From assembly GCA_000002445.1 (NCBI GenBank), contig CM000208.1, positions 3,776,001 to 3,840,000 on the forward strand: a stretch of DNA of 64,000 bases, given 5' to 3'. Positions 29,701-44,800 of the stretch are shown one piece after another (position 1 is the first letter of the stretch; the number at the start of each line of letters is the position of its first letter). The position numbers were made by a program, and so were the translations under genes. The stretch is from Trypanosoma brucei. Taxonomy: Eukaryota. A model generated the notes under the pieces. That model saw nothing but the letters and a program-made list of their open reading frames with translations. It was not told the origin of the DNA and did not search any database.

Positions 29701-32700
29701 TAACCGCCTTTCTTGCTTGTGATTACAACTCTTTTAGCATACATGACATGCTGGACCATAAAGAACTACCGATTGCCGACCCATTTCAGAGAACGGCGAT
29801 CCAGGAACTTCTGTCCAAGCCAACGGATACACTCTCCGATGAAGCAATTGGGTCCATCGTTACCGTTTTGAGGCTCCTTCTGAGGCATGGGGTGTCCGTG
29901 CAGGGTAATTTTGACGCCCTAGGGAATGATGCGTGGATGATGGCTGTTTGTTCGTCCCCAGGGAAGGGTATCGCCTTGCAAGTCTTTCTGGAGGAGCATG
30001 TGGAACTGGGCGAAGAGGATATTGCAAGTGAAACTGGTGAAAGTTTCACTCAACCGGCATTCAGCGACGGGAACAGGGACGAGGAGGAGGAAGAGGAGGA
30101 TGAGGAAAGGGAACAGCACCCACAGACTGAGTGTAGCAGTGAAGCAGACGGAGGGAGATCTGAAGATTTTCTGACCGAACCGTCAGCTTCGATGGTATCA
30201 GAAACTGCGACCATGAACAGTTCTCTAAGTTTAGTCTTGACTATGCGTCGCAAACCCGGTGAAGCTCTTGCGTCCTTCGGGTACGTACGGCGACGTGTTG
30301 GTAGGCGTCGTGGTCAAAGGTCGAGTGAATACTACGCCTCGCTCATTTTTGCATGTGCGGAAAATAACCCACAGCTCCTTGCTAAGTTCATAACTGAATA
30401 TCCGCATGTCCTTTCAACGGATGTCATTAATTCTAAGACGGGGGAAACGCTTTTGATGTACCTGCTACGCCGAGCATCGGATCTGTATGTTTTGGAATGT
30501 GGGTTGCGTAATCTGTTCCTATGGGAGGGTAAGACCGATGCTCCTACACCCTCACCAGATTCTGCCGGGGCGTTACTCTACGACACCCCTCAGACGCACC
30601 CCACCGTTGAATCAGGCAGCACGCCTTACCGCGACCCCCTTACAATCCCGGGCGTTCGGATTCTTCTTGGAGTTGTGGATCAGCTCCTGCGAACATTCAG
30701 TTTCAACAATCTGCATTACGAGTGCAATGGGCAAACCGCCCTAACACTAGCCGCGCGGCTCAGTTGTAATCCGGCTGTTCGACACATTGTAATACAGGGG
30801 TGCCAACAAGCGGGGAGTGACACAACAACGGTTGTGCTTAGTTCGCCGTCGAAAAGCTCGACCAAGGTCTTAGGGTGGGGGACGCTAAGCGGAGGCGACA
30901 GGAGCCCCGCACGAATGAGTAGCCCTTGCAATGAGGGACTCCAGAACGAATTGCGCATATTTAATTGTTGGATGTCGCTCTGCAATTGTTTGTATTACAC
31001 CGAAGAAGATATGGAGGCTTTGTTTGCAGTTCTACGTCACCTGCCGAGTAGCATAAGGGTGTCATTCCTGGGAATGGTGTACCCTAACTTGCACCCGATG
31101 GTTGCCCTGCGTGTAGCAGTTCTGTACACTAATGCTATGAAACGTATTCTTATCAAGCCTATGGTTTCAAGTACTTTTTGGTGCAGCGTATTCTATGCCC
31201 AGTTTGTTGGACGACTGGAAGAGGAAGTATTGAGGAATGGCAAGTGGAACACACTTCTCAGTATACTACTACCGTGTGCCTCCGCGATTCCCATATACCT
31301 CTTGAAATCAATGCCATCATTTCCAGAGACGTCCCCCGATGACCTTTTGCCCGGCACTTCACTGGCGAGCGTCACGCCCACGGAACAAAGTACCGAGAGA
31401 ATAGCAAGAGGGAGTGTGTTGCAGCAGCCGTCAAACTGGAGAACGATAATCAACGGGACAGAGCAGTACATCAAACAAATTGCTACAGCAGCTGTATGTG
31501 CTGTGGCACCGGTGCATCTTACCTCTGGTACACAAAGCTATAAGAACCTTCCTGCAGTTCGGCAAAGTTTTCTTTCGGAGATGGCCTCACACTTTCACGA
31601 AGTGCTCGAACTGGCAGTGCGCTTTGACAACTGTGCTCTACTTAGTGCACTTATAAATATGCTTCCAGCTGATCTTTGCCACTGTCTAAAGTTCGAGTGG
31701 CGTTGTTTGATGGAAAAGAACCACCTTCCAGTGATTGCGGTGACTGCAGGGAGCGTTAACGTGCTAAAGTACCTTGAACGCATTCCAGAAGCGGGGCGGT
31801 ATGTGACCTATGACCGTTATGACCGCATCGACACGGATACTGGCATGCCTGATGACTATGCTGCAAATGAACACAATGCACAGCAGGATGCAACTCAGCC
31901 TCGTCGGCGCTCGATCAGTCTACCTTCCATCGCGTTCCTAGGGAGTAACGAAAGGCCCCAAAACACCTTAAGCCCCCACAAGGGCTTAGATAAGGCAGGC
32001 GATGCTTCGCCGAGTGAGAAGAAGCAAAGCGAGGGTGGACAATTGAAGGGATCCAACAGTGGAACGGCGGCGGGTAATAGTCAAGAAGCCGGTGACACCA
32101 CAAAGGAAGGGACTCTCCACAGCTGGGATGTGATATCTGCTGTTCATCAGCGAAAGGCAGTTGGGGCAGTGACGTGGGGTGTAGGCGCGGCCGCCCGTCC
32201 GGTGTCCATGCACAAACAATCCGTCTCAAAAGAATCATCAAACACGACGATGAAGCTATCTCGGGGAAGACAGCACGGTGGCGCTACGAGGCGCCGTAGT
32301 GCGGGCACCGGCAAATCGTTTAACGTCACTCCAGCCTCATCAGCACCCGATTCGTGGCGTAGCGGTGCAGATGGAAAGCCGAAGTCATCGCCATCGAAAC
32401 GGAGACTGTCACTGGAGGGGGGGCCGGGAACGGGCGGAACTAGTTTCACTTCGCCCTCGAGAGGTATGAGGCTTTTCTCGATAACCCCTGAGGTGCGGGA
32501 GCAGCCACGTTACTTCGCGTACTATCTCTGTGATTGGGCTCTTCATACCACCTTACTGCTGCACGCACCATATCCGTCAATGAGAATGATAGAGACCCTC
32601 CTGCACCTCATGGACAATCGGGCTCCCCTCAGTGCATCCGCGATACACATGTTCCTCGCGGCCTCGCGCCCAATGAATCACTGGTCCTCTGGCGAAGGTG

Positions 32701-34142
32701 AACATATCACACTTAACTACACCACGCCCACACACGGTGATACGATTCTGCATCTTCTGGTGCAGAACCACCAGATACAATTGGCACGGTACTTCCTCGC
32801 CGCGGCGCACTGCTTCTTCGCCTGCTACCAATACGACCAGCCGTCTACCGTTCCGCCGAACTTCCCGGTGAGCAGCGAGAGGGGGACCTGTGGAGACACA
32901 GTAGACAGTGACTCTAGATATCCTGCCGTGTTCTTGCGAAGCATGCTGCGCACAAATAAACATGGGCTGACAGCTTTTGATTATGCCCGGGGGATGATGG
33001 TGTCGGTACTACAAGAATACGGATGTGTTCCACCAACCTACCGCCCCAACCCCCGTGAGTTTTGCCACACCGTTCGGCTCGTTGATGGCATGAGTACCTT
33101 CCAAAGAGTTCCTCAGCTTCTTCTTGTCTCCCCAGACTTTGTGAAACTGCGTGACAACGTGCGCACAAATACAAAGCAGCAAGACCCGTCGGTCAAACCA
33201 GTTATCACAGACGCCACGATACAACGGAATCAAGCAGCTGCACTCCGCATCACACGGTCACATATCCTCACCACCATCCTTGCAGATGATGTTAGCTTGC
33301 TGCACCTTGGCCTCTGTGCTGCGGATGACGAGCTCGTGCTTGAAAATATTGAACGTAGAAGAAGAAAAAGAGCAGCTGAACTTTACCATCCTGCTGCTGC
33401 TTCAGGACGAAGCATGTCAAGTCCGCGAGGGCCCTCAATACGGGACCAGCAAGGTGGCAACCAAAGGTTAACTCGCCTTCCGCACATCGGCGGCGCAGCA
33501 GAAACTGCTGCTCGGACGAGTACCCCGGCCAGTGGTGGTCGGAAGGTTGACAAGGAAATGCACAGCATGATGAAACTCATTGACTCTCTTCAAAAACGTG
33601 GTCTTGTTGTATTCCCGCTGCTACTACCCGCGACAGAAGATGACAAGAAACGCACGGCAGCAATACATAGCAATGATGGATTAGCCCTCCAACTGGCCAT
33701 GACACCTATGACCGTAGCACTCCAACAAGGTGCAGTTAAGCTCGAGGTGGCGACTGTAACTTCCCCCAACCCCACACAACAACAGCAGCAACAACACCGC
33801 AGTCCTGTAAGTGCTACCGAGCCCTTGGACAGCATGTACAACAATGACGTGCAGGACGCGACAATATCACCACGCTCGCTACAGCCTTACACGTTCCCAC
33901 CGAAAGACACCCCCAGACAGCACCCTGCCAATATGCTGGAGGCATGGTTAGCAAGCAGCAAAATGCAAAAGGGAGTGCACACCAAAGTAAGCCAGGAGCT
34001 ACATCAGAATACTCAGGCGATAATAAGAGTCATGGAAAAAGGAAACTGTTCTCGGTCAGCAAAACAAATCGGACTTACTGTGTCAATGCCGTACGAAATA
34101 CGCAACGAAGAAAGCACCACTAAAGAGTCATTCAGAAAATAA
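23760..34142 (+). CDS. Giant (3460 aa) SPRY-domain and ankyrin-repeat protein
   Basis: Uninterrupted 10.4-kb ORF from an ATG. Around aa ~880-900 there is a SPRY/B30.2-like segment (VIGCHVDMTTRSASYTVNGVSLGTVFTALPSATGLRPAVSLQ). Around aa ~1180-1600 there are multiple ankyrin repeats (TALHLACENGQLAVVRALIAGGAQLNVQN; TPLHLAVESGHEKVALDIV; GDTVLHAAARKGMLSVIEYI; GHTPLLAAIHAHQEEAAQLI). More ankyrin-like repeats occur near the C-terminus (GDTILHLLVQNHQIQLARYFL). Confidence 0.85.
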   Translation: MTSAAALRPPVTLLWDARVSCSTQEKGKQDGSSPVLDSEPHIISLGELDVLSCSDEELELHLNGIRDLVQSRPDSWLKKKGGKGFSKRQLALIQDELVHYQGVLKQANEILSWLLCRLNDRISVLRRDESMLREYYESLERGTGIDEDYNMHKKDKFHRRLRESKRRAPIKRYSKELEFLTSRHTQLVQLLTTVESEERAYNVRGADEDTSRRSKLLSPEDTKIEEIYRDAAAAGGGKAVTLMRMRALQPLIRKEQELRFVPPLLASDVHSRLRKEIILPFSVRVLALKIEKGNIIGDKFVQWYINTVVDPLTMAQLVELVPREHLVTTTVRLAKVCDAYPQSRRAQPLPDISHVVLESVSEGRIDAFASLVLSTSATCTRALRDKDEEAIILFSAVITAQVEVIRRIISVGFYNTNALNVWLFLNPNNKCNYYKTYVHETTNNVKKYLSSLSRSSRDHLSTEGAEEDVIEMAQITLTQKWEEWDSSLLTGGLGASLRHFLNNRLLWKRNTSTPKPRSSASRGGRDSAAEGWEKGHGMDVSLSVSFTPSLLNKLTSGDPTFSSLLSRRKFDRLPMSAPKCAVLPATSTPMLRRVDPWGYTPLETTGAHLLLVGDTSTVNAHVVRLPARRMTKWNEHVPNEPQDVRMQRDQMQTLIDSHGTRFYYEVHISLFFLINDVPLSPSPFEYTAAASENATSEGLPSQQRCTAYVGWCSEECVAAADGYSSNQPLGSDTSSIGISFDVVHRHRLDELTEEVILRPMKHAVGCTNTIEVANDGGEMQSVSLIRMYFQSWNRTPDGADENGSVSDDAISFGESRTSWVYSGLGTFSSEGFSLEKPRQPSETVVPFVKLVGEGNEESATEEDDSDDIPRVIRNVFRLAGVPVYKSQSIVIGCHVDMTTRSASYTVNGVSLGTVFTALPSATGLRPAVSLQVSEEMKSILQGVNQSDSTVVRFVFDRHLLLSHHMELLEPGAVEIESTTRSSSLQDIKPLGGSEEVELIPGMGITKDALLFDGDMMQCAMVRLLTGAERGSCSDAFDDEELMKGGRESISLGTALRVRTSSIRALLNNPTPNEDLLFFPPVLLRRRSDESEKVASGITIIPEDAMLAPLCAALAMRQRIAAYQIVIHPLLDFETSNHIMLQQRRMAVLACSTLGYEEVLYVLLQRMAIHEVVALFSIKAPAAPQDSQPKLNRRFAIIPANSANKITSASTLQYFHYTPLHCALLEGHTNCAHLLLFYLNRALGKEYLRHALNVFSRGGETALVISSRVGYTDIAKRLLALGASPFLFDRVTRSNCLELACAGGSEEIALALLDTPDFHSPVAVNQAGSAPPLCWCALKNISALVRPLLENGADPNVTLDGPTPLFLAVMFESQEVALELLRYCESTANKTAPSANAYRAALRKRFGAPTARRPGGEELGDEGPLAMLDVDAMDPRTQCTALHLACENGQLAVVRALIAGGAQLNVQNKASFATPLHLAVESGHEKVALDIVEYAKNKLRRGHEVLDINAIDKSGDTVLHAAARKGMLSVIEYIMSQFSEEEVARIHKNHDFSKRPSPANVLAVNRQGHTPLLAAIHAHQEEAAQLIASLVPDYLANPGGAIVSGTCVAISESDVEGLDNVTLFLLSSPNYVATEDFRKRFFDHYNAKRAEMDLSEDYPNSEEVRRPRVALHVNKRHSKRRGRRVRVVPSFRKQRMSFRLSISSMYGVGRSRGSTSAVARDVRTEDSRSRWVVANEHLARSKMTRIAPRRCSMFVRMLLAKGYRNPTTRKTIQFLKQGFAIDELYAMLDVISFETLRKAQSHWSMQYTDSIISFLHMFGGVHVAPIDAVLFIRKLFYSHELTENVDKEQVEESKQKLMNMRPLCRDLVNMVRTRGTLTDCVEDMRQMVLQSGLSGDKLTEELTSPFGYTVLQLAATLSLANVCTYLINECHMSPLFVPAGHSDESTSNATTTRARSDDEDSEQKWLLSPFRLAVRTLNIEVITAFLACDYNSFSIHDMLDHKELPIADPFQRTAIQELLSKPTDTLSDEAIGSIVTVLRLLLRHGVSVQGNFDALGNDAWMMAVCSSPGKGIALQVFLEEHVELGEEDIASETGESFTQPAFSDGNRDEEEEEEDEEREQHPQTECSSEADGGRSEDFLTEPSASMVSETATMNSSLSLVLTMRRKPGEALASFGYVRRRVGRRRGQRSSEYYASLIFACAENNPQLLAKFITEYPHVLSTDVINSKTGETLLMYLLRRASDLYVLECGLRNLFLWEGKTDAPTPSPDSAGALLYDTPQTHPTVESGSTPYRDPLTIPGVRILLGVVDQLLRTFSFNNLHYECNGQTALTLAARLSCNPAVRHIVIQGCQQAGSDTTTVVLSSPSKSSTKVLGWGTLSGGDRSPARMSSPCNEGLQNELRIFNCWMSLCNCLYYTEEDMEALFAVLRHLPSSIRVSFLGMVYPNLHPMVALRVAVLYTNAMKRILIKPMVSSTFWCSVFYAQFVGRLEEEVLRNGKWNTLLSILLPCASAIPIYLLKSMPSFPETSPDDLLPGTSLASVTPTEQSTERIARGSVLQQPSNWRTIINGTEQYIKQIATAAVCAVAPVHLTSGTQSYKNLPAVRQSFLSEMASHFHEVLELAVRFDNCALLSALINMLPADLCHCLKFEWRCLMEKNHLPVIAVTAGSVNVLKYLERIPEAGRYVTYDRYDRIDTDTGMPDDYAANEHNAQQDATQPRRRSISLPSIAFLGSNERPQNTLSPHKGLDKAGDASPSEKKQSEGGQLKGSNSGTAAGNSQEAGDTTKEGTLHSWDVISAVHQRKAVGAVTWGVGAAARPVSMHKQSVSKESSNTTMKLSRGRQHGGATRRRSAGTGKSFNVTPASSAPDSWRSGADGKPKSSPSKRRLSLEGGPGTGGTSFTSPSRGMRLFSITPEVREQPRYFAYYLCDWALHTTLLLHAPYPSMRMIETLLHLMDNRAPLSASAIHMFLAASRPMNHWSSGEGEHITLNYTTPTHGDTILHLLVQNHQIQLARYFLAAAHCFFACYQYDQPSTVPPNFPVSSERGTCGDTVDSDSRYPAVFLRSMLRTNKHGLTAFDYARGMMVSVLQEYGCVPPTYRPNPREFCHTVRLVDGMSTFQRVPQLLLVSPDFVKLRDNVRTNTKQQDPSVKPVITDATIQRNQAAALRITRSHILTTILADDVSLLHLGLCAADDELVLENIERRRRKRAAELYHPAAASGRSMSSPRGPSIRDQQGGNQRLTRLPHIGGAAETAARTSTPASGGRKVDKEMHSMMKLIDSLQKRGLVVFPLLLPATEDDKKRTAAIHSNDGLALQLAMTPMTVALQQGAVKLEVATVTSPNPTQQQQQQHRSPVSATEPLDSMYNNDVQDATISPRSLQPYTFPPKDTPRQHPANMLEAWLASSKMQKGVHTKVSQELHQNTQAIIRVMEKGNCSRSAKQIGLTVSMPYEIRNEESTTKESFRK

Positions 34143-34351
34143 ATGTTCAAAACACACAAAAAAATGTAAACAAGCACTTACTAATTATCAAAATTAAAAA
34201 TCACATTTTCACAATAGAAACAAGTAACGGAAAAAAATGCTGAAAAATAAAAAATATACACCCAAACCTACAAAAACACTTTATCACTCTACAACAGACA
34301 GGAAGAAAAAAGACACCTAGTTTGTAAGGAATGTTGTGGCCTGGAAACACT

Positions 34352-34465
34352 GTCGCGCATGATGTGCTCAACTGGAATTACCATCTGAACGCGGGATACC
34401 GCAAGTCGATGAATTAATGCTACGTGCATTACCTCCGCTGTTACTCGTATCACTGACACCGCGAC
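34352..34465 (+). ncRNA. Candidate box C/D snoRNA (array copy 1)
   Basis: GTCGCGc-ATGATGT(C box)-19 nt-CTGA(D')-19 nt-GATGAA(C')-~40 nt-CTGA(D)-cacCGCGAC. The 6-bp terminal stem GTCGCG/CGCGAC brackets the C and D boxes, as in canonical C/D snoRNAs. No rRNA target complementarity could be checked. Confidence 0.4.
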
Positions 34466-35559
34466 TGTTTCCTTTGTTTTGAGGCCCTCAGGGAAGCGCG
34501 TGATGACATACAAAGTTGTTTGCACATTTTCCGACACACCGTGAGCGAGTTACAATATTACAAGAACACCATCTGAATTTTTGTCGACTCTACCCCTTCC
34601 TCCTTATTGGTGATGGCACAATGCATCTGTTCCCTTCTTTTATTTGGACCCTCTTCTTCCTACCCACTTACATACATGCACACACGTCTCTGTGTAAATG
34701 TATGCAGATATGTATACACACACACACTCTCTCTCTCTCCCGAATGCCGAGGCCTTTCTGTCTGTTCCCGGTCGGTGATTAGCAGTGCGTCTTCCACCTA
34801 ACGACCCTTGATGATTATGATACGATGCCTGGTCAACAGAACTATACTACACCAAATTTAGTAAATGAGACCACAGTGCAGGCAGAGGCTGGCAATCCTC
34901 GTCCGCCAGCAGCCGCCCCGGGCAGGATGGCGCCCGTGTCCCTGGCGTGACGTCTAATCGGTGCGGCGAGATGTGCTGACACTTTTGCGTCGCGTGATGA
35001 GGTGCAGAAGGCATGTCGCCGCTACGGCGGTGGCTCGCGTAGCCGTCTGGCTGTGCGCGTACTGTGAGCTACTGTACTCCATGGGTGAACAATCTCTGAT
35101 GACGTGTCACAGCGGGAGCAGTGTCGCTATGCGTTCCCGTCAGTAATACGGGCTAACGGTACGAAGCACGTGCGAGAGGTAAGTGGAAATCCGCTGCCTG
35201 TGAACACAGCAGGTACACATGATGCACACAATTCAATACTCACTCTGAACATCACTTGTCAGGAGGAATGTGATAACATGCACCACCAGCTGATCACATC
35301 CACGTGCATACATGCACACATGCCCTATCCCGCTTCCTTCACTTTTTCACACAGTCTGTGTGTCTGTGTGTCTGTGTGTGTGTGTGTACACCCGCATGTT
35401 TGTATACTTGTTTGTGACCATGCCAATGGACCCTTAATTACTCTATTTTTTTTTTCTCGTGGGCGGCTTTGAGACTGAGTGTGCGTCCTTAATACGCGAA
35501 CAACAAGCAAGGCCTCGTTGTTTGCTAGTTTGTAAGGAATGTTGTGGCCTGGAAACACT

Positions 35560-35673
35560 GTCGCGCATGATGTGCTCAACTGGAATTACCATCTGAACGC
35601 GGGATACCGCAAGTCGATGAATTAATGCTACGTGCATTACCTCCGCTGTTACTCGTATCACTGACACCGCGAC
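35560..35673 (+). ncRNA. Candidate box C/D snoRNA (array copy 2)
   Basis: Same element as copy 1: C box 35567-35573, D' 35593-35596, C' ~35616-35621, D 35661-35664, terminal stem 35560-35565 / 35668-35673. Confidence 0.4.
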
Positions 35674-36767
35674 TGTTTCCTTTGTTTTGAGGCCCTCAGG
35701 GAAGCGCGTGATGACATACAAAGTTGTTTGCACATTTTCCGACACACCGTGAGCGAGTTACAATATTACAAGAACACCATCTGAATTTTTGTCGACTCTA
35801 CCCCTTCCTCCTTATTGGTGATGGCACAATGCATCTGTTCCCTTCTTTTATTTGGACCCTCTTCTTCCTACCCACTTACATACATGCACACACGTCTCTG
35901 TGTAAATGTATGCAGATATGTATACACACACACACTCTCTCTCTCTCCCGAATGCCGAGGCCTTTCTGTCTGTTCCCGGTCGGTGATTAGCAGTGCGTCT
36001 TCCACCTAACGACCCTTGATGATTATGATACGATGCCTGGTCAACAGAACTATACTACACCAAATTTAGTAAATGAGACCACAGTGCAGGCAGAGGCTGG
36101 CAATCCTCGTCCGCCAGCAGCCGCCCCGGGCAGGATGGCGCCCGTGTCCCTGGCGTGACGTCTAATCGGTGCGGCGAGATGTGCTGACACTTTTGCGTCG
36201 CGTGATGAGGTGCAGAAGGCATGTCGCCGCTACGGCGGTGGCTCGCGTAGCCGTCTGGCTGTGCGCGTACTGTGAGCTACTGTACTCCATGGGTGAACAA
36301 TCTCTGATGACGTGTCACAGCGGGAGCAGTGTCGCTATGCGTTCCCGTCAGTAATACGGGCTAACGGTACGAAGCACGTGCGAGAGGTAAGTGGAAATCC
36401 GCTGCCTGTGAACACAGCAGGTACACATGATGCACACAATTCAATACTCACTCTGAACATCACTTGTCAGGAGGAATGTGATAACATGCACCACCAGCTG
36501 ATCACATCCACGTGCATACATGCACACATGCCCTATCCCGCTTCCTTCACTTTTTCACACAGTCTGTGTGTCTGTGTGTCTGTGTGTGTGTGTGTACACC
36601 CGCATGTTTGTATACTTGTTTGTGACCATGCCAATGGACCCTTAATTACTCTATTTTTTTTTTCTCGTGGGCGGCTTTGAGACTGAGTGTGCGTCCTTAA
36701 TACGCGAACAACAAGCAAGGCCTCGTTGTTTGCTAGTTTGTAAGGAATGTTGTGGCCTGGAAACACT

Positions 36768-36881
36768 GTCGCGCATGATGTGCTCAACTGGAATTACCAT
36801 CTGAACGCGGGATACCGCAAGTCGATGAATTAATGCTACGTGCATTACCTCCGCTGTTACTCGTATCACTGACACCGCGAC
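36768..36881 (+). ncRNA. Candidate box C/D snoRNA (array copy 3)
   Basis: Identical copy, offset +1208 bp. Confidence 0.4.
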
Positions 36882-37975
36882 TGTTTCCTTTGTTTTGAGG
36901 CCCTCAGGGAAGCGCGTGATGACATACAAAGTTGTTTGCACATTATCCGACACACCGTGAGCGAGTTACAATATTACAAGAACACCATCTGAATTTTTGT
37001 CGACTCTACCCCTTCCTCCTTATTGGTGATGGCACAATGCATCTGTTCCCTTCTTTTATTTGGACCCTCTTCTTCCTACCCACTTACATACATGCACACA
37101 CGTCTCTGTGTAAATGTATGCAGATATGTATACACACACACACTCTCTCTCTCTCCCGAATGCCGAGGCCTTTCTGTCTGTTCCCGGTCGGTGATTAGCA
37201 GTGCGTCTTCCACCTAACGACCCTTGATGATTATGATACGATGCCTGGTCAACAGAACTATACTACACCAAATTTAGTAAATGAGACCACAGTGCAGGCA
37301 GAGGCTGGCAATCCTCGTCCGCCAGCAGCCGCCCCGGGCAGGATGGCGCCCGTGTCCTTGGCGTGACGTCTAATCGGTGCGGCGAGATGTGCTGACACTT
37401 TTGCGTCGCGTGATGAGGTGCAGAAGGCATGTCGCCGCTACGGCGGTGGCTCGCGTAGCCGTCTGGCTGTGCGCGTACTGTGAGCTACTGTACTCCATGG
37501 GTGAACAATCTCTGATGACGTGTCACAGCGGGAGCAGTGTCGCTATGCGTTCCCGTCAGTAATACGGGCTAACGGTACGAAGCACGTGCGAGAGGTAAGT
37601 GGAAATCCGCTGCCTGTGAACACAGCAGGTACACATGATGCACACAATTCAATACTCACTCTGAACATCACTTGTCAGGAGGAATGTGATAACATGCACC
37701 ACCAGCTGATCACATCCACGTGCATACATGCACACATGCCCTATCCCGCTTCCTTCACTTTTTCACACAGTCTGTGTGTCTGTGTGTCTGTGTGTGTGTG
37801 TGTACACCTGCATGTTTGTATACTTGTTTGTGACCATGCCAATGGACCCTTAATTACTCTATTTTTTTTTTCTCGTGGGCGGCTTTGAGACTGAGTGTGC
37901 GTCCTTAATACGCGAACAACAAGCAAGGCCTCGTTGTTTGCTAGTTTGTAAGGAATGTTGTGGCCTGGAAACACT

Positions 37976-38089
37976 GTCGCGCATGATGTGCTCAACTGGA
38001 ATTACCATCTGAACGCGGGATACCGCAAGTCGATGAATTAATGCTACGTGCATTACCTCCGCTGTTACTCGTATCACTGACACCGCGAC
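37976..38089 (+). ncRNA. Candidate box C/D snoRNA (array copy 4)
   Basis: Identical copy, offset +2416 bp. A fifth copy (39184-39236) is truncated after the D' box, where the array ends. Confidence 0.4.
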
Positions 38090-39307
38090 TGTTTCCTTTG
38101 TTTTGAGGCCCTCAGGGAAGCGCGTGATGACATACAAAGTTGTTTGCACATTTTCCGACACACCGTGAGCGAGTTACAATATTACAAGAACACCATCTGA
38201 ATTTTTGTCGACTCTACCCCTTCCTCCTTATTGGTGATGGCACAATGCATCTGTTCCCTTCTTTTATTTGGACCCTCTTCTTCCTACCCACTTACATACA
38301 TGCACACACGTCTCTGTGTAAATGTATGCAGATATGTATACACACACACTCTCTCTCTCTCTCCCGAATGCCGAGGCCTTTCTGTCTGTTCCCGGTCGGT
38401 GATTAGCAGTGCGTCTTCCACCTAACGACCCTTGATGATTATGATACGATGCCTGGTCAACAGAACTATACTACACCAAATTTAGTAAATGAGACCACAG
38501 TGCAGGCAGAGGCTGGCAATCCTCGTCCGCCAGCAGCCGCCCCGGGCAGGATGGCGCCCGTGTCCCTGGCGTGACGTCTAATCGGTGCGGCGAGATGTGC
38601 TGACACTTTTGCGTCGCGTGATGAGGTGCAGAAGGCATGTCGCCGCTACGGCGGTGGCTCGCGTAGCCGTCTGGCTGTGCGCGTACTGTGAGCTACTGTA
38701 CTCCATGGGTGAACAATCTCTGATGACGTGTCACAGCGGGAGCAGTGTCGCTATGCGTTCCCGTCAGTAATACGGGCTAACGGTACGAAGCACGTGCGAG
38801 AGGTAAGTGGAAATCCGCTGCCTGTGAACACAGCAGGTACACATGATGCACACAATTCAATACTCACTCTGAACATCACTTGTCAGGAGGAATGTGATAA
38901 CATGCACCACCAGCTGATCACATCCACGTGCATACATGCACACATGCCCTATCCCGCTTCCTTCACTTTTTCACACAGTCTGTGTGTCTGTGTGTCTGTC
39001 TGTGTGTGTGTACACCTGCATGTTTGTATACTTGTTTGTGACCATGCCAATGGACCCTTAATTACTCTATTTTTTTTTTCTCGTGGGCGGCTTTGAGACT
39101 GAGTGTGCGTCCTTAATACGCGAACAACAAGCAAGGCCTCGTTGTTTGCTAGTTTGTAAGGAATGTTGTGGCCTGGAAACACTGTCGCGCATGATGTGCT
39201 CAACTGGAATTACCATCTGAACGCGGGATACCGCAGGATGATGTCTTGAAACTATACTCTTTTCCTGCGCCTTTTTATTTTTCTCTTAGTGTTTATTTAT
39301 TATTCTG

Positions 39308-40861
39308 ATGTCTGGAGAAAACTTGAATAAATCGATGAGTGCTGAAAGGGTTGCTGGGTCGTTGTCCGTAGGTCATGGCGTAGATCATGGTTCTCGTAAA
39401 CGAGCTCGTTCTATTTGTTTGAAGCAAAATTTTTCTCGACTTTTGTACCAGATGGTTATTCGTCAGCTGCATCATGATGGTTTTCTTGCTGCTGCATCCG
39501 CTGTCGCAGACGCTACTAACGTTGTTGTTCCGAGGCTGGAGGAAAATGCTGATCGATTGTCGAAGGTGGTTAGTTGGGGTCTCGCTGTGGAGGAGAGCAG
39601 TGTGGTTGAAATTGAGAACTTCTTCAAATTTGAAGTTGTTGAGCGATATTTGAGTGCATCGAGGGTATATATGCCGCTACACCTATCAGAGAGTGCAAGG
39701 GTGGGATCCATGGCGTATCGTATGCGAGAGCGTTTTATTACCTCATCTCTAGGTGGTGTTGTTCGACGTCTGGCATTTTCTTCGGATGGTTCGCTTATTG
39801 CATGTGGGGGAACTGATGGTCTGTGTGCCATTTTTTCTTTGAATACAATTGAGGATCTCAGTGCCCTTGAAGAAGTGCGGCAGGAGCAGCACTTTAACGG
39901 ACTTGATGGGAGTAACCCTAGTAATATTGGGGTGGGCAACGCAAGCAACAAAATTACGGAGCTCGCTGAGGCCCGTCGCTTTCATGAACACACGCACTCT
40001 GTGGAGGCTATTTCCTTTCATCCAACCAAGCAGCTTCTTGTCACTGGAGGTTTCGAGGGAGATTTGTACATTCGTGACTACAGTCAACCAGACAACCACG
40101 TTGTACACAAATTACGTGATGCTTTTCCTGTACGTTCCGCCGTTTTTCATCCCTCTGGAGAATACGTGCTGTACGCTACAGATCACACCACGCCAAGGCT
40201 TCTGAACCTCCGGAGTGGATCAGTGGTGGCCCCTGTGGCACACTCCGATAACGCTGCAGCAACCTGCGTAACCGCGATGGCAGGAGGAAAGGGAGTAGCT
40301 CGTGGTGCTTCTCAGAGGAAAGGCTGTGACGCAGGCCACGCGGCTGCTCTATGTGACGTGGATTTTTCTCCCGACGGCCGGACCTTCGCCTCATGCGGTC
40401 TAGACGGATCACTGATTGTGTATGACGGAGTCAGTAGTCGCATTGTGGCGAAGGTAAACAATGCACACTCAAGTGTTCCGGTAACCAGCGTAAAATTTAG
40501 TCGAACTGGTAATATTCTCCTCACCGCGGGCATGGACTCAGTTGCTCGGCTGTGGGACCTGCGGCGTGGGGATGGTGGGTGGGGCTGTACAGAAGTTATG
40601 TCGTTCGGCGAGCCTGGAAAATGTAATCACCGCAGCTTCCGTGCTTCTTTCAGCTGCAACGAAAGCCACGTCCTCTCCCAGGACACTTCCCTGTTTGCCA
40701 TTCACGCACACTGCGTCTACACAGGGGATACCTCATACACACTTACGGTGCCCAACCACATGCAGCGGGGCTTTGCCCCTGCGCCTTTTAGTAATGTAGT
40801 CGTTAGCGGTGGCGACGACTCACGTATGCGGCTATGGACACCGGCATGGACCACGGCGTGA
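39308..40861 (+). CDS. LisH-like + WD40 repeat protein
   Basis: 517 aa starting at an ATG. The N-terminus has a LisH-like helix pair (FSRLLYQMVIRQLHHDGFLAAASAVADAT). At least five WD40 blades have the typical G-x-D...W/Y-D endings (GGTDGLCAIFSL, TGGFEGDLYIRD, SCGLDGSLIVYD, TAGMDSVARLWDL, SGGDDSRMRLW). It sits 70 bp downstream of the array end, behind a pyrimidine-rich stretch and an AG. Confidence 0.8.
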   Translation: MSGENLNKSMSAERVAGSLSVGHGVDHGSRKRARSICLKQNFSRLLYQMVIRQLHHDGFLAAASAVADATNVVVPRLEENADRLSKVVSWGLAVEESSVVEIENFFKFEVVERYLSASRVYMPLHLSESARVGSMAYRMRERFITSSLGGVVRRLAFSSDGSLIACGGTDGLCAIFSLNTIEDLSALEEVRQEQHFNGLDGSNPSNIGVGNASNKITELAEARRFHEHTHSVEAISFHPTKQLLVTGGFEGDLYIRDYSQPDNHVVHKLRDAFPVRSAVFHPSGEYVLYATDHTTPRLLNLRSGSVVAPVAHSDNAAATCVTAMAGGKGVARGASQRKGCDAGHAAALCDVDFSPDGRTFASCGLDGSLIVYDGVSSRIVAKVNNAHSSVPVTSVKFSRTGNILLTAGMDSVARLWDLRRGDGGWGCTEVMSFGEPGKCNHRSFRASFSCNESHVLSQDTSLFAIHAHCVYTGDTSYTLTVPNHMQRGFAPAPFSNVVVSGGDDSRMRLWTPAWTTA

Positions 40862-41834: not shown

Positions 41835-44800
41835 ATGTCTGGTCTGACTTCACACAACATCTCAGCTACATCTATTCGTGTGCATGGAATCACACGTGAA
41901 CGTGATATGTGCGTTTTCTGCCGGAAGCGCTCTTCGCCACCACCTAATGATCCGCTGGCACCAGTATTTGCCTTCTTCTCGCTGGTTGACTGCCGTCACT
42001 ACGCGTGCCAACCGTGTGCTCTCGTGCATTGCGACAACGCTGGGCGGCATATACGTTGCCCCGCGTGTTGCGCGATTTCTCGTCTCGCGCAGTCGGGCCG
42101 CCGTCGCGGAAACCGTGTGGATGAACGAGTGCCAATAGATGACGGCGTATCGTCGGCGGCATCGCAGAGCTCAAAAAGAGTGTTGGCCCCACCGAAGCGT
42201 TCACTCTCCGTCACTGACCGGCGGAGACGTACGTCATCTGTTCAGTTCTCAACAAACTTAACATCGCCCAGTGGGCAGAAGGAGGCCCTCAGCACCGGCG
42301 GCTCTAACACGTCATTGACACTTGCCGCGGTCGGCCGGCTGCCAACCGACCCTAACTATAGCAAAGGCAAAGGGGATGAAGGAGGAACCGTTGCGGCCTT
42401 CAGCGAGGAGGAACGAATATCGGTCGATTTGTACACCATTAAGGGCACCGCTGCAAAACGCCCGCGTCGCACAACAGCTGAACGTGCCCGCAGTCAGCCG
42501 CTTCCTCCGGCAGAATATCGCTATTTGCCACCACCAACGCCGTTCCATCGCCCGCCGCCGCTAGTAATTCACACGATTGAGGAGGAAGAAGAGGTTGCGG
42601 CTTCATTCCAACTCATTGTAAGGGAAATCGAGCAAACTATCGCTGCTACGCTAGTAAAGGAGGCAGATGAGCGTGACACAATCGGAATTGCGGAAGCACA
42701 CCGCCGCAACGTCCTTTCAAAATTACGTGAAGAGGATGAAAGAAAGAGATTTGCAGCACATCACGAACTCAATGACGAGTTTTCTGATGCCAAATTAAGT
42801 CCTCGCACAACAACAAACGCATCAGACGGCCAAGTCAGTGAAACATCCGATGAAGGAATGTCAGAACTCTCAACACAACAAGACTCAATTCAAAAGAACT
42901 ACAAACAACCCATAGATCAAAAAGCAATGATCACAAAGGAAAGAACAGGAACACCTACCGCAGCGGAAAAACAAACAAAACACCAACAACAAACAATCAC
43001 CAAACAGAACACTGAAGAAGAAAAAAAAGAAGCAAAAAATGAAAACAATAAGGAGAGTAAAAAAAAACGGCGTGAGCGTGTTGAGGTTGCTACATGGGAT
43101 TCGGAACAACAGCTGCGGCTCTTTGAACAACTTATGGATCTCGCTCGTGATGAACAACAGCACCGTGCCAAAATACAGCGTGACGAAACTCGTATGCATG
43201 CGGAAATGGAACGAAGTGAGGCTAGCGATGTTGCAACAATCAAGGCTGCAATGGAGGCCATGGCAGAGTCAGCACGTAGAGAGCAGGAGGAATTATTGCG
43301 TGATGAGAAGGAAGAACGCTACACCATCCAAGAGGATGAGCGACGGCTACGGCGCAACATAACGCGACAGAGCGCGGAGCTCTCACTCGACGTCAGCATG
43401 CAGCATGTGCAACAACGTGGTAAGGAGGACGCACAAAGGGAATTGGATATGCTAAGGGTTGCACTGGAATCAACTGCTGTTGAAACCACTTCGCGCGCTC
43501 GCCTCAACCTCATTGTAACGGAGGAACTGAGGGCACGTGATTCCCTGTGCAGTGACGAAGCAAGTGAACGAGCCATGCACGCAGCAGAAGAGCGACGTGA
43601 GCGTGTTGAGGTTGCTACATGGGATTCGGAACAACAGCTGCGGCTCTTTGAACAACTTATGGATCTCGCTCGTGATGAACAACAGCACCGTGCCAAAATA
43701 CAGCGTGACGAAACTCGTATGCATGCGGAAATGGAACGAAGTGAGGCTAGCGATGTTGCAACAATCAAGGCTGCAATGGAGGCCATGGCAGAGTCAGCAC
43801 GTAGAGAGCAGGAGGAATTATTGCGTGATGAGAAGGAAGAACGCTACACCATCCAAGAGGATGAGCGACGGCTACGGCGCAACATAACGCGACAGAGCGC
43901 GGAGCTCTCACTCGACGTCAGCATGCAGCATGTGCAACAACGTGGTAAGGAGGACGCACAAAGGGAATTGGATATGCTAAGGGTTGCACTGGAATCAACT
44001 GCTGTTGAAACCACTTCGCGCGCTCGCCTCAACCTCATTGTAACGGAGGAACTGAGGGCACGTGATTCCCTGTGCAGTGACGAAGCAAGTGAACGAGCCA
44101 TGCACGCAGCAGAAGAGCGACGTGAGCGTGTTGAGGTTGCTACATGGGATTCGGAACAACAGCTGCGGCTCTTTGAACAACTTATGGATCTCGCTCGTGA
44201 TGAACAACAGCACCGTGCCAAAATACAGCGTGACGAAACTCGTATGCATGCGGAAATGGAACGAAGTGAGGCTAGCGATGTTGCAACAATCAAGGCTGCA
44301 ATGGAGGCCATGGCAGAGTCAGCACGTAGAGAGCAGGAGGAATTATTGCGTGATGAGAAGGAAGAACGCTACACCATCCAAGAGGATGAGCGGCGGCTAC
44401 GGCGCAACATAACACGACAGAGCGCGGAGCTCTCACTCGACGTCAGCATGCAGCATGTGCAACAACGTGGTAAGGAGGACGCACAAAGGGAATTGGATAT
44501 GCTAAGGGTTGCACTGGAATCAACTGCTGTTGAAACCACTTCGCGCGCTCGCCTCAACCTCATTGTAACGGAGGAACTGAGGGCACGTGATTCCCTGTGC
44601 AGTGACGAAGCAAGTGAACGAGCCATGCACGCAGCAGAAGAGCGACGTGAGCGTGTTGAGGTTGCTACATGGGATTCGGAACAACAGCTGCGGCTCTTTG
44701 AACAACTTATGGATCTCGCTCGTGATGAACAACAGCACCGTGCCAAAATACAGCGTGACGAAACTCGTATGCATGCGGAAATGGAACGAAGTGAGGCTGA

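What the first reader, a model, noticed from the sequence alone, without database searches (positions are those of the whole stretch)
34318..39236. Four-copy 1208-bp tandem array carrying canonical box C/D snoRNA candidates, a probable reiterated snoRNA gene cluster
A 4.9-kb non-coding block sits between two co-oriented protein genes. It is made of >99% identical 1208-bp units. Each unit has a textbook C/D snoRNA architecture on the transcribed (+) strand: a 6-bp terminal stem GTCGCG/CGCGAC enclosing C (ATGATGT), D' (CTGA), C' (GATGAA) and D (CTGA), with 19 nt from C to D' and 19 nt from D' to C' (guide-length spacing; copy 2 at 35560-35673). Trypanosomatid snoRNAs are known to be encoded in tandemly repeated clusters inside polycistronic units and processed from the precursor. 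This explains the array better than a satellite or a transposon does. No SL-RNA exon or 5S sequence is present, so it is not an SL or 5S array. The putative guide segments would predict the 2'-O-methylation sites. Those guide segments are 'gctcaactggaattaccat' (upstream of D') and 'cattacctccgctgttactcgtatca' (upstream of D).
Basis: partly seen in the sequence, partly recalled or inferred. Interest (0 to 1): 0.8.

Follow-up and report, generated by a model that had tools for sequence, protein, structure and literature searches.

The report
Known Trypanosoma brucei snoRNA gene array
This is the already described tandem snoRNA gene cluster on Trypanosoma brucei chromosome 10 (TB10Cs3): four copies of a 1.2-kb unit, each encoding seven small RNAs that guide chemical modification of ribosomal RNA, so the find is real but ordinary.

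Summary
A 1208-bp unit is repeated 4.07 times at 34318-39235, and the copies are 99.7-100% identical. The array lies between two + strand genes, an ankyrin/SPRY giant ORF and a CstF50 homologue. The interpretation (reiterated trypanosomatid snoRNA cluster) is right but incomplete. Each unit carries seven snoRNA genes, not one. Six pass Rfam's curated thresholds: TBR12, TBR6, TBR4, TB10Cs3H2, TBR2 and TB10Cs3H1. The seventh is a box C/D RNA with an snR55-like guide. These Rfam families are named after this T. brucei chromosome 10 cluster, so the array is already known. The flanking protein is 100% identical to a T. brucei-group protein. T. vivax has the same cluster at the same site with a 1075-bp unit; there the snoRNAs are 63-80% identical and the spacers 28%. 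Seven of eight antisense elements match kinetoplastid rRNA with 10-13 Watson-Crick pairs in the correct register, and this agrees with published methylation sites. It has no canonical target. It pairs instead with 18S rRNA 18-55 nt upstream of the D' target, which suggests accessory base-pairing.

The parts
34318..39235 (+). Tandem array: 4 full 1208-bp units plus an 86-nt partial fifth (T. brucei chr10 snoRNA cluster TB10Cs3)
   Evidence: Lag-1208 self-match and unit comparison: 99.7-100% identity, 5 variable columns
34356..34457 (+). TBR12 box C/D snoRNA, unit 1 (further copies at 35564-35665, 36772-36873, 37980-38081).
   Evidence: Rfam RF02789, 113.2 bits (GA 77) for all 4 copies. Boxes read directly from the sequence. 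The terminal stem and internal hairpin are kept by compensatory changes in T. vivax
34497..34578 (+). TBR6 box C/D snoRNA, unit 1 (also 35705-35786, 36913-36994, 38121-38202); probably TB10Cs3C4
   Evidence: Rfam RF02788, 95-98 bits (GA 37.6). Its D and D' guides match two LSU uridines 36 nt apart, the same spacing as published LSUa_1145/1181
34773..34871 (+). TBR4 box C/D snoRNA, unit 1 (also 35981-36079, 37189-37287, 38397-38495); probably TB10Cs3C5
   Evidence: Rfam RF02787, 118.9 bits (GA 83). Two conserved elements are complementary to overlapping LSU segments, GGUGUAGUAUAG and UAGGUGGAAG
34904..34972 (+). TB10Cs3H2 H/ACA-like (single hairpin, AGA box) snoRNA, unit 1 (also 36112-36180, 37320-37388, 38528-38596)
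   Evidence: Rfam RF01532, 88-90 bits (GA 45); hairpin fold
34991..35101 (+). TBR2 box C/D snoRNA, unit 1 (also 36199-36309, 37407-37517, 38615-38725); probably TB10Cs3C1
   Evidence: Rfam RF02786, 115.7 bits (GA 62). Its D guide forms 13 WC + 1 GU pairs with LSU GGAUU*GUUCACCCA. It lies 15 nt upstream of H1, as published for C1/H1
35117..35178 (+). TB10Cs3H1 H/ACA-like snoRNA, unit 1 (also 36325-36386, 37533-37594, 38741-38802)
   Evidence: Rfam RF01531, 86.1 bits (GA 40)
35215..35295 (+). Seventh snoRNA, box C/D, unit 1 (also 36423-36503, 37631-37711, 38839-38919); probably TB10Cs3C2. Its ends are approximate
   Evidence: Only a sub-threshold Rfam hit, to snR55/Z10 (23.9 bits, E 0.23). C box AUGAUGC and two CUGA boxes are present. 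Both guides are conserved in T. vivax and L. martiniquensis. The D guide forms 12 WC pairs with SSU UGGU*GGUGCAUG and the D' guide 11 WC + 1 GU with an LSU site opposite an A
39188..39235 (+). Truncated fifth TBR12 copy: the 5' 48 nt, with C box, D' guide and D' box but no box D. Probably non-functional
   Evidence: Alignment of the partial fifth unit to unit 1; sequence. The same junction is present in T. equiperdum contig L001
35438..35475 (+). Polypyrimidine tract followed by AG in the inter-cluster spacer, repeated in every unit. Candidate trans-splice acceptor for the pre-snoRNA transcript (inferred)
   Evidence: Sequence read directly. The literature states that trypanosomatid snoRNA precursors are trans-spliced and polyadenylated (PMC6562600)
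23760..34142 (+). Upstream flanking gene: 3460-aa ankyrin-repeat/SPRY protein
   Evidence: ORF list, Pfam Ank_2/SPRY. The same gene lies upstream in T. vivax and T. conorhini
39308..40861 (+). Downstream flanking gene: CstF50-like WD40 protein
   Evidence: Pfam WD40 + CSTF1_dimer. 100% identical to a T. equiperdum / T. brucei-group protein, longest carrying contig 4.05 Mb

Best explanation
The block is the reiterated snoRNA gene cluster TB10Cs3 of Trypanosoma brucei (or a member of its species group) on chromosome 10. Each 1208-bp unit encodes, on the + strand and in this order, TBR12, TBR6, TBR4, TB10Cs3H2, TBR2, TB10Cs3H1 and a seventh box C/D RNA. Inferred from established trypanosomatid biology: RNA polymerase II reads through the array as part of the surrounding polycistronic unit, which is co-oriented with the flanking genes; the precursor is trans-spliced and polyadenylated; and nucleases release the individual snoRNAs. 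Four near-identical copies would raise the gene dosage and are kept alike by recombination or gene conversion. The five C/D RNAs assemble with fibrillarin/NOP1, NOP56, NOP58 and SNU13. They pair with pre-rRNA through 10-14-nt antisense elements so that the nucleotide opposite position 5 upstream of box D or D' is 2'-O-methylated. The two AGA-box hairpin RNAs assemble with CBF5 and direct pseudouridylation. Shown here: the array, the family membership of six genes per unit, conservation of boxes and guides across species, and rRNA complementarity in the correct register for seven antisense elements. Inferred: transcription, processing, RNP assembly, and the mapping of TBR names to the TB10Cs3C1-C5 names. 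The 3' element of TBR12 most likely provides accessory pairing with 18S rRNA just upstream of the D' target rather than guiding a second methylation.
For:: 24 Rfam hits above gathering score, six families in each of four units, all on the + strand (86-119 bits). The family names TB10Cs3H1 and TB10Cs3H2 refer to T. brucei chromosome 10 cluster 3; the downstream protein is 100% identical to a T. equiperdum / T. brucei-group CstF50 carried on a 4.05-Mb contig. T. vivax has the same gene order between the same two genes, with a 1075-bp unit. There the snoRNAs are 63-80% identical and the spacers 28%. Boxes and antisense elements are conserved, and the TBR12 terminal stem changes from GUCGCG/CGCGAC to GCUGCA/UGCAGC (compensatory). 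L. martiniquensis carries TBR6, TBR4-like, H2, TBR2 and the seventh C/D near its CstF50 gene; seven of eight antisense elements give 10-13-nt Watson-Crick runs covering position 5 on kinetoplastid rDNA, each reached by 0-11 of 300 shuffles. (PMC9283944): the published Nm sites assigned to TB10Cs3C1-C5 agree with the predicted target nucleotide in every case checked. They also reproduce the 36-nt spacing of the two TBR6 targets and the U-G-G context of SSU_1674/1676. (PMC3273796): primer extension for TB10Cs3C1 and H1, and Northern analysis of a ~150-nt RNA that falls only on NOP58 silencing and a ~76-nt RNA that changes only on CBF5 silencing. [quoted passage not shown]
Against: Nothing substantive contradicts this. 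There are four caveats. T. brucei's own rRNA was not available, so complementarity was tested on environmental kinetoplastid rDNA. The primary papers that define TBR2/4/6/12 and TB10Cs3 (Dunbar 2000, Liang 2005, Rajan 2020) are not held, so the TBR-to-TB10Cs3C name mapping is my inference. The copy number of such a near-identical array depends on the assembly; the T. equiperdum contig breaks at the array. Single-sequence folding energies are not better than shuffles, which is expected for C/D RNAs.
Confidence: 0.97

Rival explanations
1. A non-coding satellite or other non-functional tandem repeat that only resembles snoRNAs by chance.
For: High copy identity and embedded (GTCTGTGT)n/(TG)n microsatellites. 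Folding energies are no better than shuffles.
Against: Six curated covariance models are passed in every unit, with E values of 1e-15 to 1e-27. Conservation with T. vivax is confined to the snoRNA segments, and within them to boxes and guides. Complementarity to rRNA lies in the correct register. Expression and modification data are published.
Confidence: 0.01
2. A transposon or retroelement-derived repeat.
For: The unit is repeated, and mechanical ORFs of 100-122 aa occur in each unit.
Against: The ORFs have non-ATG starts and no Pfam match even at E 0.1. No terminal repeats or element-type coding capacity were seen. The same array sits at the orthologous site in T. vivax.
Confidence: 0.01
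3. The array is real, but its four-copy structure is an assembly artefact: the true copy number differs, or the repeats were expanded or collapsed.
For: Copies are 99.7-100% identical. The T. equiperdum short-read contig ends inside the array. Two T. vivax contigs carry 1.43 and 2.43 copies.
Against: Five copy-specific variants distinguish units 3 and 4. Both junctions with unique sequence are clean, and the 3' junction is reproduced in an independent assembly. This rival concerns only the copy number, not the nature of the locus.
Confidence: 0.25
4. The segment upstream of box D of TBR12 is a second canonical methylation guide.
For: It occupies the position of a D guide, and 21 nt of it (CAUUACCUCCGCUGUUACUCG) are identical in T. 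vivax.
Against: The longest Watson-Crick run covering position 5 on kinetoplastid rDNA is 6 nt, reached by 300/300 shuffles. Positions 1-7 next to box D differ between T. brucei and T. vivax, including position 5. The published table lists only SSU_680 for the snoRNA I equate with TBR12, and no Nm site between SSU_125 and SSU_680. The element does pair, at -25.4 kcal/mol (4/1000 shuffles), with the SSU stretch 18-55 nt 5' of the D' target.
Confidence: 0.1

Closest known systems
T. brucei snoRNA cluster TB10Cs3 (C1-C5, H1, H2; includes TBR2, TBR4, TBR6, TBR12)
   Same: Six of seven genes per unit pass the Rfam models built for these RNAs with near-maximal alignments. The flanking protein is 100% identical to a T. 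brucei-group protein. The predicted target nucleotides agree with the published sites for TB10Cs3C1-C5.
   Different: No difference is demonstrable. This is the same locus, or its equivalent in a very close strain or subspecies. The copy number may differ between strains and assemblies.
Orthologous cluster in T. vivax (GCA_021307395.1, loci L002/L003)
   Same: Same gene order and same flanking genes (ankyrin/SPRY upstream, CstF50 downstream). It is also a tandem array, with conserved boxes and guides.
   Different: The unit is 1075 bp and there are 1.4-2.4 copies. Spacers are unrelated (28% identity). The TBR2 homologue falls below Rfam's threshold and its D guide has diverged. The array starts and ends at different points in the unit.
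Yeast snR55 / plant Z10 (Rfam RF00472)
   Same: The D guide of the seventh C/D RNA (AACAUGCACCACCAG-CUGA) aligns with the snR55/Z10 guide. It targets the same universally conserved SSU site, UGGU*GGUGCAUG.
   Different: The score is far below the family threshold (23.9 bits against 50). The rest of the RNA is unrelated, and it carries an additional D' guide against LSU rRNA. It is a functional analogue or distant homologue, not a member by Rfam's criterion.
'Extra base-pairing' elements of yeast and human box C/D snoRNAs (van Nues et al. 2011, PMC3116282)
   Same: The 3' element of TBR12 is conserved and is complementary to rRNA next to the methylation site selected by the other guide.
   Different: Not tested experimentally here. 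The element sits in the D-guide position, and its target lies 18-55 nt away from the D' target rather than immediately next to it.
Polycistronic snoRNA clusters of plants and other trypanosomatids (Leishmania, Leptomonas)
   Same: Several snoRNAs of both classes are packed 15-200 nt apart on one strand and released from a common precursor. A Leishmania counterpart was found here.
   Different: The T. brucei cluster is reiterated as near-identical 1.2-kb units inside a protein-coding polycistron. In L. martiniquensis the copies are separated by a transporter gene.

Membership tests
   AUGAUGU at 35567-35573, CUGA at 35661-35664, stem GUCGCG/CGCGAC. In T. vivax the stem is kept with a different sequence, GCUGCA/UGCAGC
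Box C/D snoRNA (TBR12) | Internal D' and C' boxes | tested here: met
   CUGA at 35593-35596 and GAUGAA at 35616-35621. The D' box is conserved in T. vivax; C' is degenerate there (GAAGAU)
Box C/D snoRNA (TBR12) | Antisense element of at least 10 nt to rRNA, with the target opposite position 5 upstream of D or D' | tested here: met
   The D' guide forms 11 WC pairs with SSU GGUAAUUCCAG, with a U opposite position 5 (3/300 shuffles). The D-side element does NOT meet this (6 nt, 300/300 shuffles)
Box C/D snoRNA (TBR12) | Stable ~100-nt RNA bound by fibrillarin/NOP56/NOP58 | not testable with these tools
   Needs small-RNA or IP data. Published NOP58-dependence in the papers I could read concerns TB10Cs3C1, not specifically TBR12
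Rfam RF02789 snoTBR12, RF02788 snoTBR6, RF02787 snoTBR4, RF02786 snoTBR2 | Covariance-model score at or above the curated gathering score over the full model | tested here: met
   113.2/77, 95-98/37.6, 118.9/83 and 115.7/62 bits. All are full-length and present in all four units
Trypanosomatid H/ACA-like snoRNA (RF01531 TB10Cs3H1, RF01532 TB10Cs3H2) | Single hairpin followed by an AGA box about 3 nt from the 3' end; score above the gathering score | tested here: met
   86.1/40 and 88-90/45 bits. The hairpin folds end in GAGAG and GAGAU
Trypanosomatid H/ACA-like snoRNA | Pseudouridylation pocket complementary to rRNA, with the target U 14-16 nt from the AGA box | tested here: inconclusive
   A brute-force pocket search gave a 10+6-bp site for H2 in two related rDNAs (LSU 5' domain). 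It was not consistent across loci, and nothing was clear for H1
Rfam RF00472 snR55/Z10 (seventh C/D RNA) | Score at or above the gathering score (50 bits) | tested here: not met
   23.9 bits, E 0.23. Only the guide and boxes align, so it is a functional analogue of snR55 rather than a family member by this criterion
Trypanosomatid reiterated snoRNA cluster | Several C/D and H/ACA-like genes close together on one strand, the cluster tandemly repeated, co-oriented with the surrounding polycistron | tested here: met
   Seven genes per 1208-bp unit, 4.07 units, all on the + strand like both flanking ORFs
Trypanosomatid reiterated snoRNA cluster | Pol II polycistronic transcription and processing from a trans-spliced, polyadenylated precursor | not testable with these tools
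   Stated in the literature for the class (PMC6562600). Here there is only a polypyrimidine tract followed by AG in each spacer

The most novel reading that the evidence does not exclude
The conserved 21-27-nt segment upstream of box D of TBR12 may not be a methylation guide. It may instead be an accessory or chaperone element that clamps 18S rRNA 18-55 nt upstream of the 530-loop site methylated through the D' guide. TBR4 similarly uses two separate segments against one continuous LSU stretch. If so, extended bipartite snoRNA-rRNA pairing of the 'extra base-pairing' type would be a conserved feature of this trypanosome cluster.
Probability: 0.5. Interest if true: 0.25.

Novelty: already known. 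Interest (0 to 1): 0.08.

Why it matters
The finding has little importance as a discovery. The cluster, its RNAs and most of their rRNA targets are published and already in Rfam. Its value is as a positive control: a reader working from sequence alone correctly recognised a trypanosomatid snoRNA array. Two small refinements come out of the check. One of the two proposed guides is probably an accessory pairing element rather than a methylation guide. The seventh snoRNA of the unit has no Rfam family of its own, although it is conserved from Trypanosoma to Leishmania.

Tried and rejected
1. Primary papers (Liang 2005 PMC1370750, Dunbar 2000, Rajan 2020 PMC7549662) could not be read. The supplement of PMC3273796 is not held. 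The TBR-to-TB10Cs3C mapping therefore rests on target nucleotides and gene adjacency.

2. TRF does not report the array, because the 1208-bp period exceeds its 500-bp limit. I replaced it with a lag analysis.

3. Single-sequence folding of TBR12, the seventh C/D, H1 and H2 gave z-scores from -1.1 to +0.2, which is uninformative.

4. A canonical target for the TBR12 D-side element was not found. An unrestricted RNAduplex scan of whole rDNAs with the 21-nt core gave a best site in the LSU GTPase-centre region at -22.3 kcal/mol, within the shuffle range. I rejected that site.

5. The H/ACA pocket target search was inconclusive.

6. The syntenic intergenic region of T. conorhini has no snoRNA hit even at E 0.1. 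The T. theileri locus has none at gathering score. The position next to CstF50 is therefore not universal in Trypanosoma, or those assemblies collapsed it.

7. The internal ORFs of the array have no Pfam match.

8. Satellite and transposon readings were rejected (see rival explanations).


Full report
OBSERVATION

A self-comparison at a lag of 1208 bases shows near-perfect identity from 34318 to 39235. Cutting the block into units gives four complete 1208-bp copies, starting at 34318, 35526, 36734 and 37942. An 86-nt partial fifth copy follows at 39150-39235. Units 1 and 2 are identical. All other pairs differ at 3-4 positions, which is 99.7-99.8% identity. Only five columns vary. Two lie in snoRNA genes (TBR6 at 36945 and H2 at 37358) and three lie in spacers, one of these in the TG-rich microsatellite and one just beyond it.

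TRF did not list the array because its longest period is 500. The block lies between two + strand ORFs. Upstream is a 3460-aa ankyrin/SPRY protein (23760-34142). Downstream is a 517-aa WD40 protein with a CstF1 dimerisation domain (39308-40861). The mechanical ORFs inside the array have non-ATG starts and no Pfam match.

WHAT IT IS

A scan of the whole window against Rfam at the curated thresholds returns 24 hits. All lie inside the array, all are on the + strand, and six fall in each unit. In order they are:
- snoTBR12 (RF02789, 113 bits)
- snoTBR6 (RF02788, 95-98 bits)
- snoTBR4 (RF02787, 119 bits)
- TB10Cs3H2 (RF01532, 88-90 bits)
- snoTBR2 (RF02786, 116 bits)
- TB10Cs3H1 (RF01531, 86 bits)

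Every hit is full-length and close to the family consensus.

A seventh box C/D RNA follows H1 (unit 2: 36423-36503). It has a C box AUGAUGC and two CUGA boxes. It reaches only a sub-threshold match to yeast snR55 / plant Z10, through its D guide. No SL RNA, 5S or other RNA family is found in the window.

The names TB10Cs3H1 and TB10Cs3H2 stand for T. brucei chromosome 10, cluster 3. The downstream protein is 100% identical to a protein named from T. equiperdum and also carried on a 4.05-Mb contig. T. congolense is the next closest at 78% identity. The window is therefore from the T. brucei species group, and the array is the published cluster TB10Cs3.

RELATED LOCI

Orthologues of CstF50 were used to fetch the syntenic region in other species. 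T. vivax has the same cluster, in the same gene order, between the same two genes. Its unit is 1075 bp, with 2.43 copies on one contig and 1.43 on another.

A unit-to-unit alignment shows 63-80% identity within the seven snoRNAs and 28% in the spacers. Within the snoRNAs, the boxes and antisense elements are the conserved parts. The terminal stem of TBR12 changes from GUCGCG/CGCGAC to GCUGCA/UGCAGC. Its internal hairpin changes from GCGG/CCGC to GCGU/ACGC. Both changes are compensatory.

Leishmania martiniquensis carries TBR6, a TBR4-like gene, H2, TBR2 and the seventh C/D RNA about 9 kb upstream of CstF50. A second pair, TBR2 plus the seventh C/D, lies directly upstream of CstF50. T. conorhini and T. 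theileri show nothing at this position.

GUIDE TEST

T. brucei rRNA was not available. I therefore fetched kinetoplastid-type rDNA contigs from metagenomes using a kinetoplastid SSU 5' signature. I then asked, for each antisense element, how long a Watson-Crick run covers position 5 upstream of the box. The asterisk marks the nucleotide opposite position 5. Scores are numbers of shuffles, out of 300, that reach the observed run length.

- TBR12 D' guide: 11 nt on SSU GGU*AAUUCCAG (3/300).
- TBR6 D' guide: 11 nt (2/300). TBR6 D guide: 10 nt (7/300). The two targets are LSU uridines exactly 36 nt apart.
- TBR4 D' guide (variant box ACGA): 10 nt on LSU UAGGU*GGAAG (11/300).
- TBR2 D guide: 13 nt plus one G-U on LSU GGAUU*GUUCACCCA (1/300).
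- Seventh C/D, D' guide: 11 nt opposite an LSU A (0/300).
- Seventh C/D, D guide: 12 nt on SSU UGGU*GGUGCAUG (0/300).

These results agree with the published table of T. brucei Nm sites and their guides (PMC9283944):
- TB10Cs3C3: SSU_680 (U)
- TB10Cs3C4: LSUa_1145 and LSUa_1181 (both U, 36 nt apart)
- TB10Cs3C5: LSUb_728 (U)
- TB10Cs3C1: LSUb_1375 (U)
- TB10Cs3C2: SSU_1674 (U) and LSUa_254 (A)

In the same table SSU_1676 (G) is guided by another snoRNA, which fits the U-G-G context at that site.

PMC3273796 reports that TB10Cs3C1 and H1 are adjacent and that primer extension shows them to be separate mature RNAs. Its Northern analysis shows a ~150-nt RNA that falls only on NOP58 silencing and a ~76-nt RNA that changes only on CBF5 silencing. 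This fits TBR2 lying 15 nt upstream of H1.

From these agreements I infer this name mapping:
- TBR2 = C1
- seventh C/D = C2
- TBR12 = C3
- TBR6 = C4
- TBR4 = C5

I could not read it in the primary papers, which are not held.

THE EXCEPTION

It has no canonical target: the longest run covering position 5 is 6 nt, reached by all 300 shuffles. Its seven bases next to box D differ between T. brucei and T. vivax, including position 5. The 21 nt further upstream (CAUUACCUCCGCUGUUACUCG) are identical in the two species.

In many kinetoplastid SSU sequences the 75 nt just 5' of the D' target read ...AUAUCGAGUAACAAUUGGAGGACAAGUCUGGUGCC.... The element pairs with this stretch in three blocks (CGAGUAACA, UGGAGG, UGGUGC) at -25.4 kcal/mol. 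Only 4 of 1000 shuffled elements do as well.

The published table shows no Nm site between SSU_125 and SSU_680. The most economical reading is accessory 'extra base-pairing' of the kind shown in yeast and human snoRNAs to stimulate methylation (PMC3116282). This is an inference, not a demonstration.

TBR4 shows a related arrangement. A second conserved segment is complementary to LSU GGUGUAGUAUAG, which overlaps by 3 nt the target of its D' guide.

MECHANISM

Shown here:
- the gene content of the array
- conservation across species
- complementarity to rRNA in the correct register

Taken from the literature for this class (PMC6562600):
- trypanosomatid snoRNA clusters are transcribed polycistronically by RNA polymerase II
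- their precursors are trans-spliced and polyadenylated before the snoRNAs are released

Consistent with this, all snoRNAs are co-oriented with the flanking genes. Each spacer contains a polypyrimidine tract followed by AG (about 35438-35475). The array ends in a truncated TBR12 copy (39188-39235), which is followed at once by the polypyrimidine tract and AG that precede the CstF50 start codon. The same junction is present in an independent T. equiperdum assembly, whose contig starts inside the array. This also shows that the copy number of such arrays depends on the assembly.

COMPARISON AND NOVELTY

This is not merely similar to a known system. It is the known locus. The satellite and transposon rivals are excluded. 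The only open points are minor:
- the true copy number
- the role of the TBR12 3' element
- the rRNA targets of the two H/ACA-like RNAs, for which my pocket search was inconclusive
- the absence of an Rfam family for the seventh C/D RNA, although it is conserved from Trypanosoma to Leishmania

VERDICT

Novelty: already known. Interest is low (0.08).

Noticed in passing
window 43063-44937 (inside ORF 41835-47081, + strand): A 525-bp (175-codon) tandem repeat lies inside a 1748-aa ORF: three copies at 99-100% identity and a fourth at 63%. The ORF has only a weak FabA-like Pfam hit. This is a repetitive protein of unknown function two genes downstream of the array.
   Followed up: partly
window 39188-39235; L001 1-33: The array ends in a 5' fragment of TBR12 that has a C box, D' guide and D' box but no box D. 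The T. equiperdum contig CZPT02001414 begins inside this fragment, so short-read assemblies break at the array.
   Followed up: yes
window 36423-36503 and equivalents; L003 8180-8340 and 9255-9340; L006 ~960-1068 and ~9140-9250: The seventh C/D snoRNA of the unit has no Rfam family that it passes. Both of its guides are nevertheless conserved in T. vivax and Leishmania martiniquensis.
   Followed up: yes
L006 (L. martiniquensis) 1-1070 and 8979-9250: The Leishmania counterpart of the cluster is split. A fuller cluster and a second pair (TBR2 plus the seventh C/D) directly upstream of CstF50 are separated by an MFS sugar-transporter gene.
   Followed up: partly
L004 (T. conorhini) 8981-10001; L005 (T. 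theileri): In T. conorhini the ankyrin/SPRY-to-CstF50 intergenic region is only about 1 kb and has no snoRNA hit even at E 0.1. T. theileri shows none at gathering score. The cluster is either elsewhere in these species or was collapsed in assembly.
   Followed up: partly
window 35354-35387, 36562-36595, 37770-37803, 38978-39011: A (GTCTGTGT)n/(TG)n microsatellite lies in every unit's spacer. One of the array's five variable positions falls inside it (39000) and another just beyond it (37809/39017).
   Followed up: no
window 39451-39498: A 25-bp motif is repeated 1.9 times inside the CstF50 coding region (TRF score 66).
   Followed up: no
L003 9000-9157 (T. vivax): The T. vivax TBR2 homologue falls below Rfam's threshold. 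Its D guide (GGCAAGCAGUCU) has diverged from the T. brucei/Leishmania guide (GGUGAACAAUCU), which matches LSU rRNA perfectly. This may be decay or retargeting in T. vivax.
   Followed up: no
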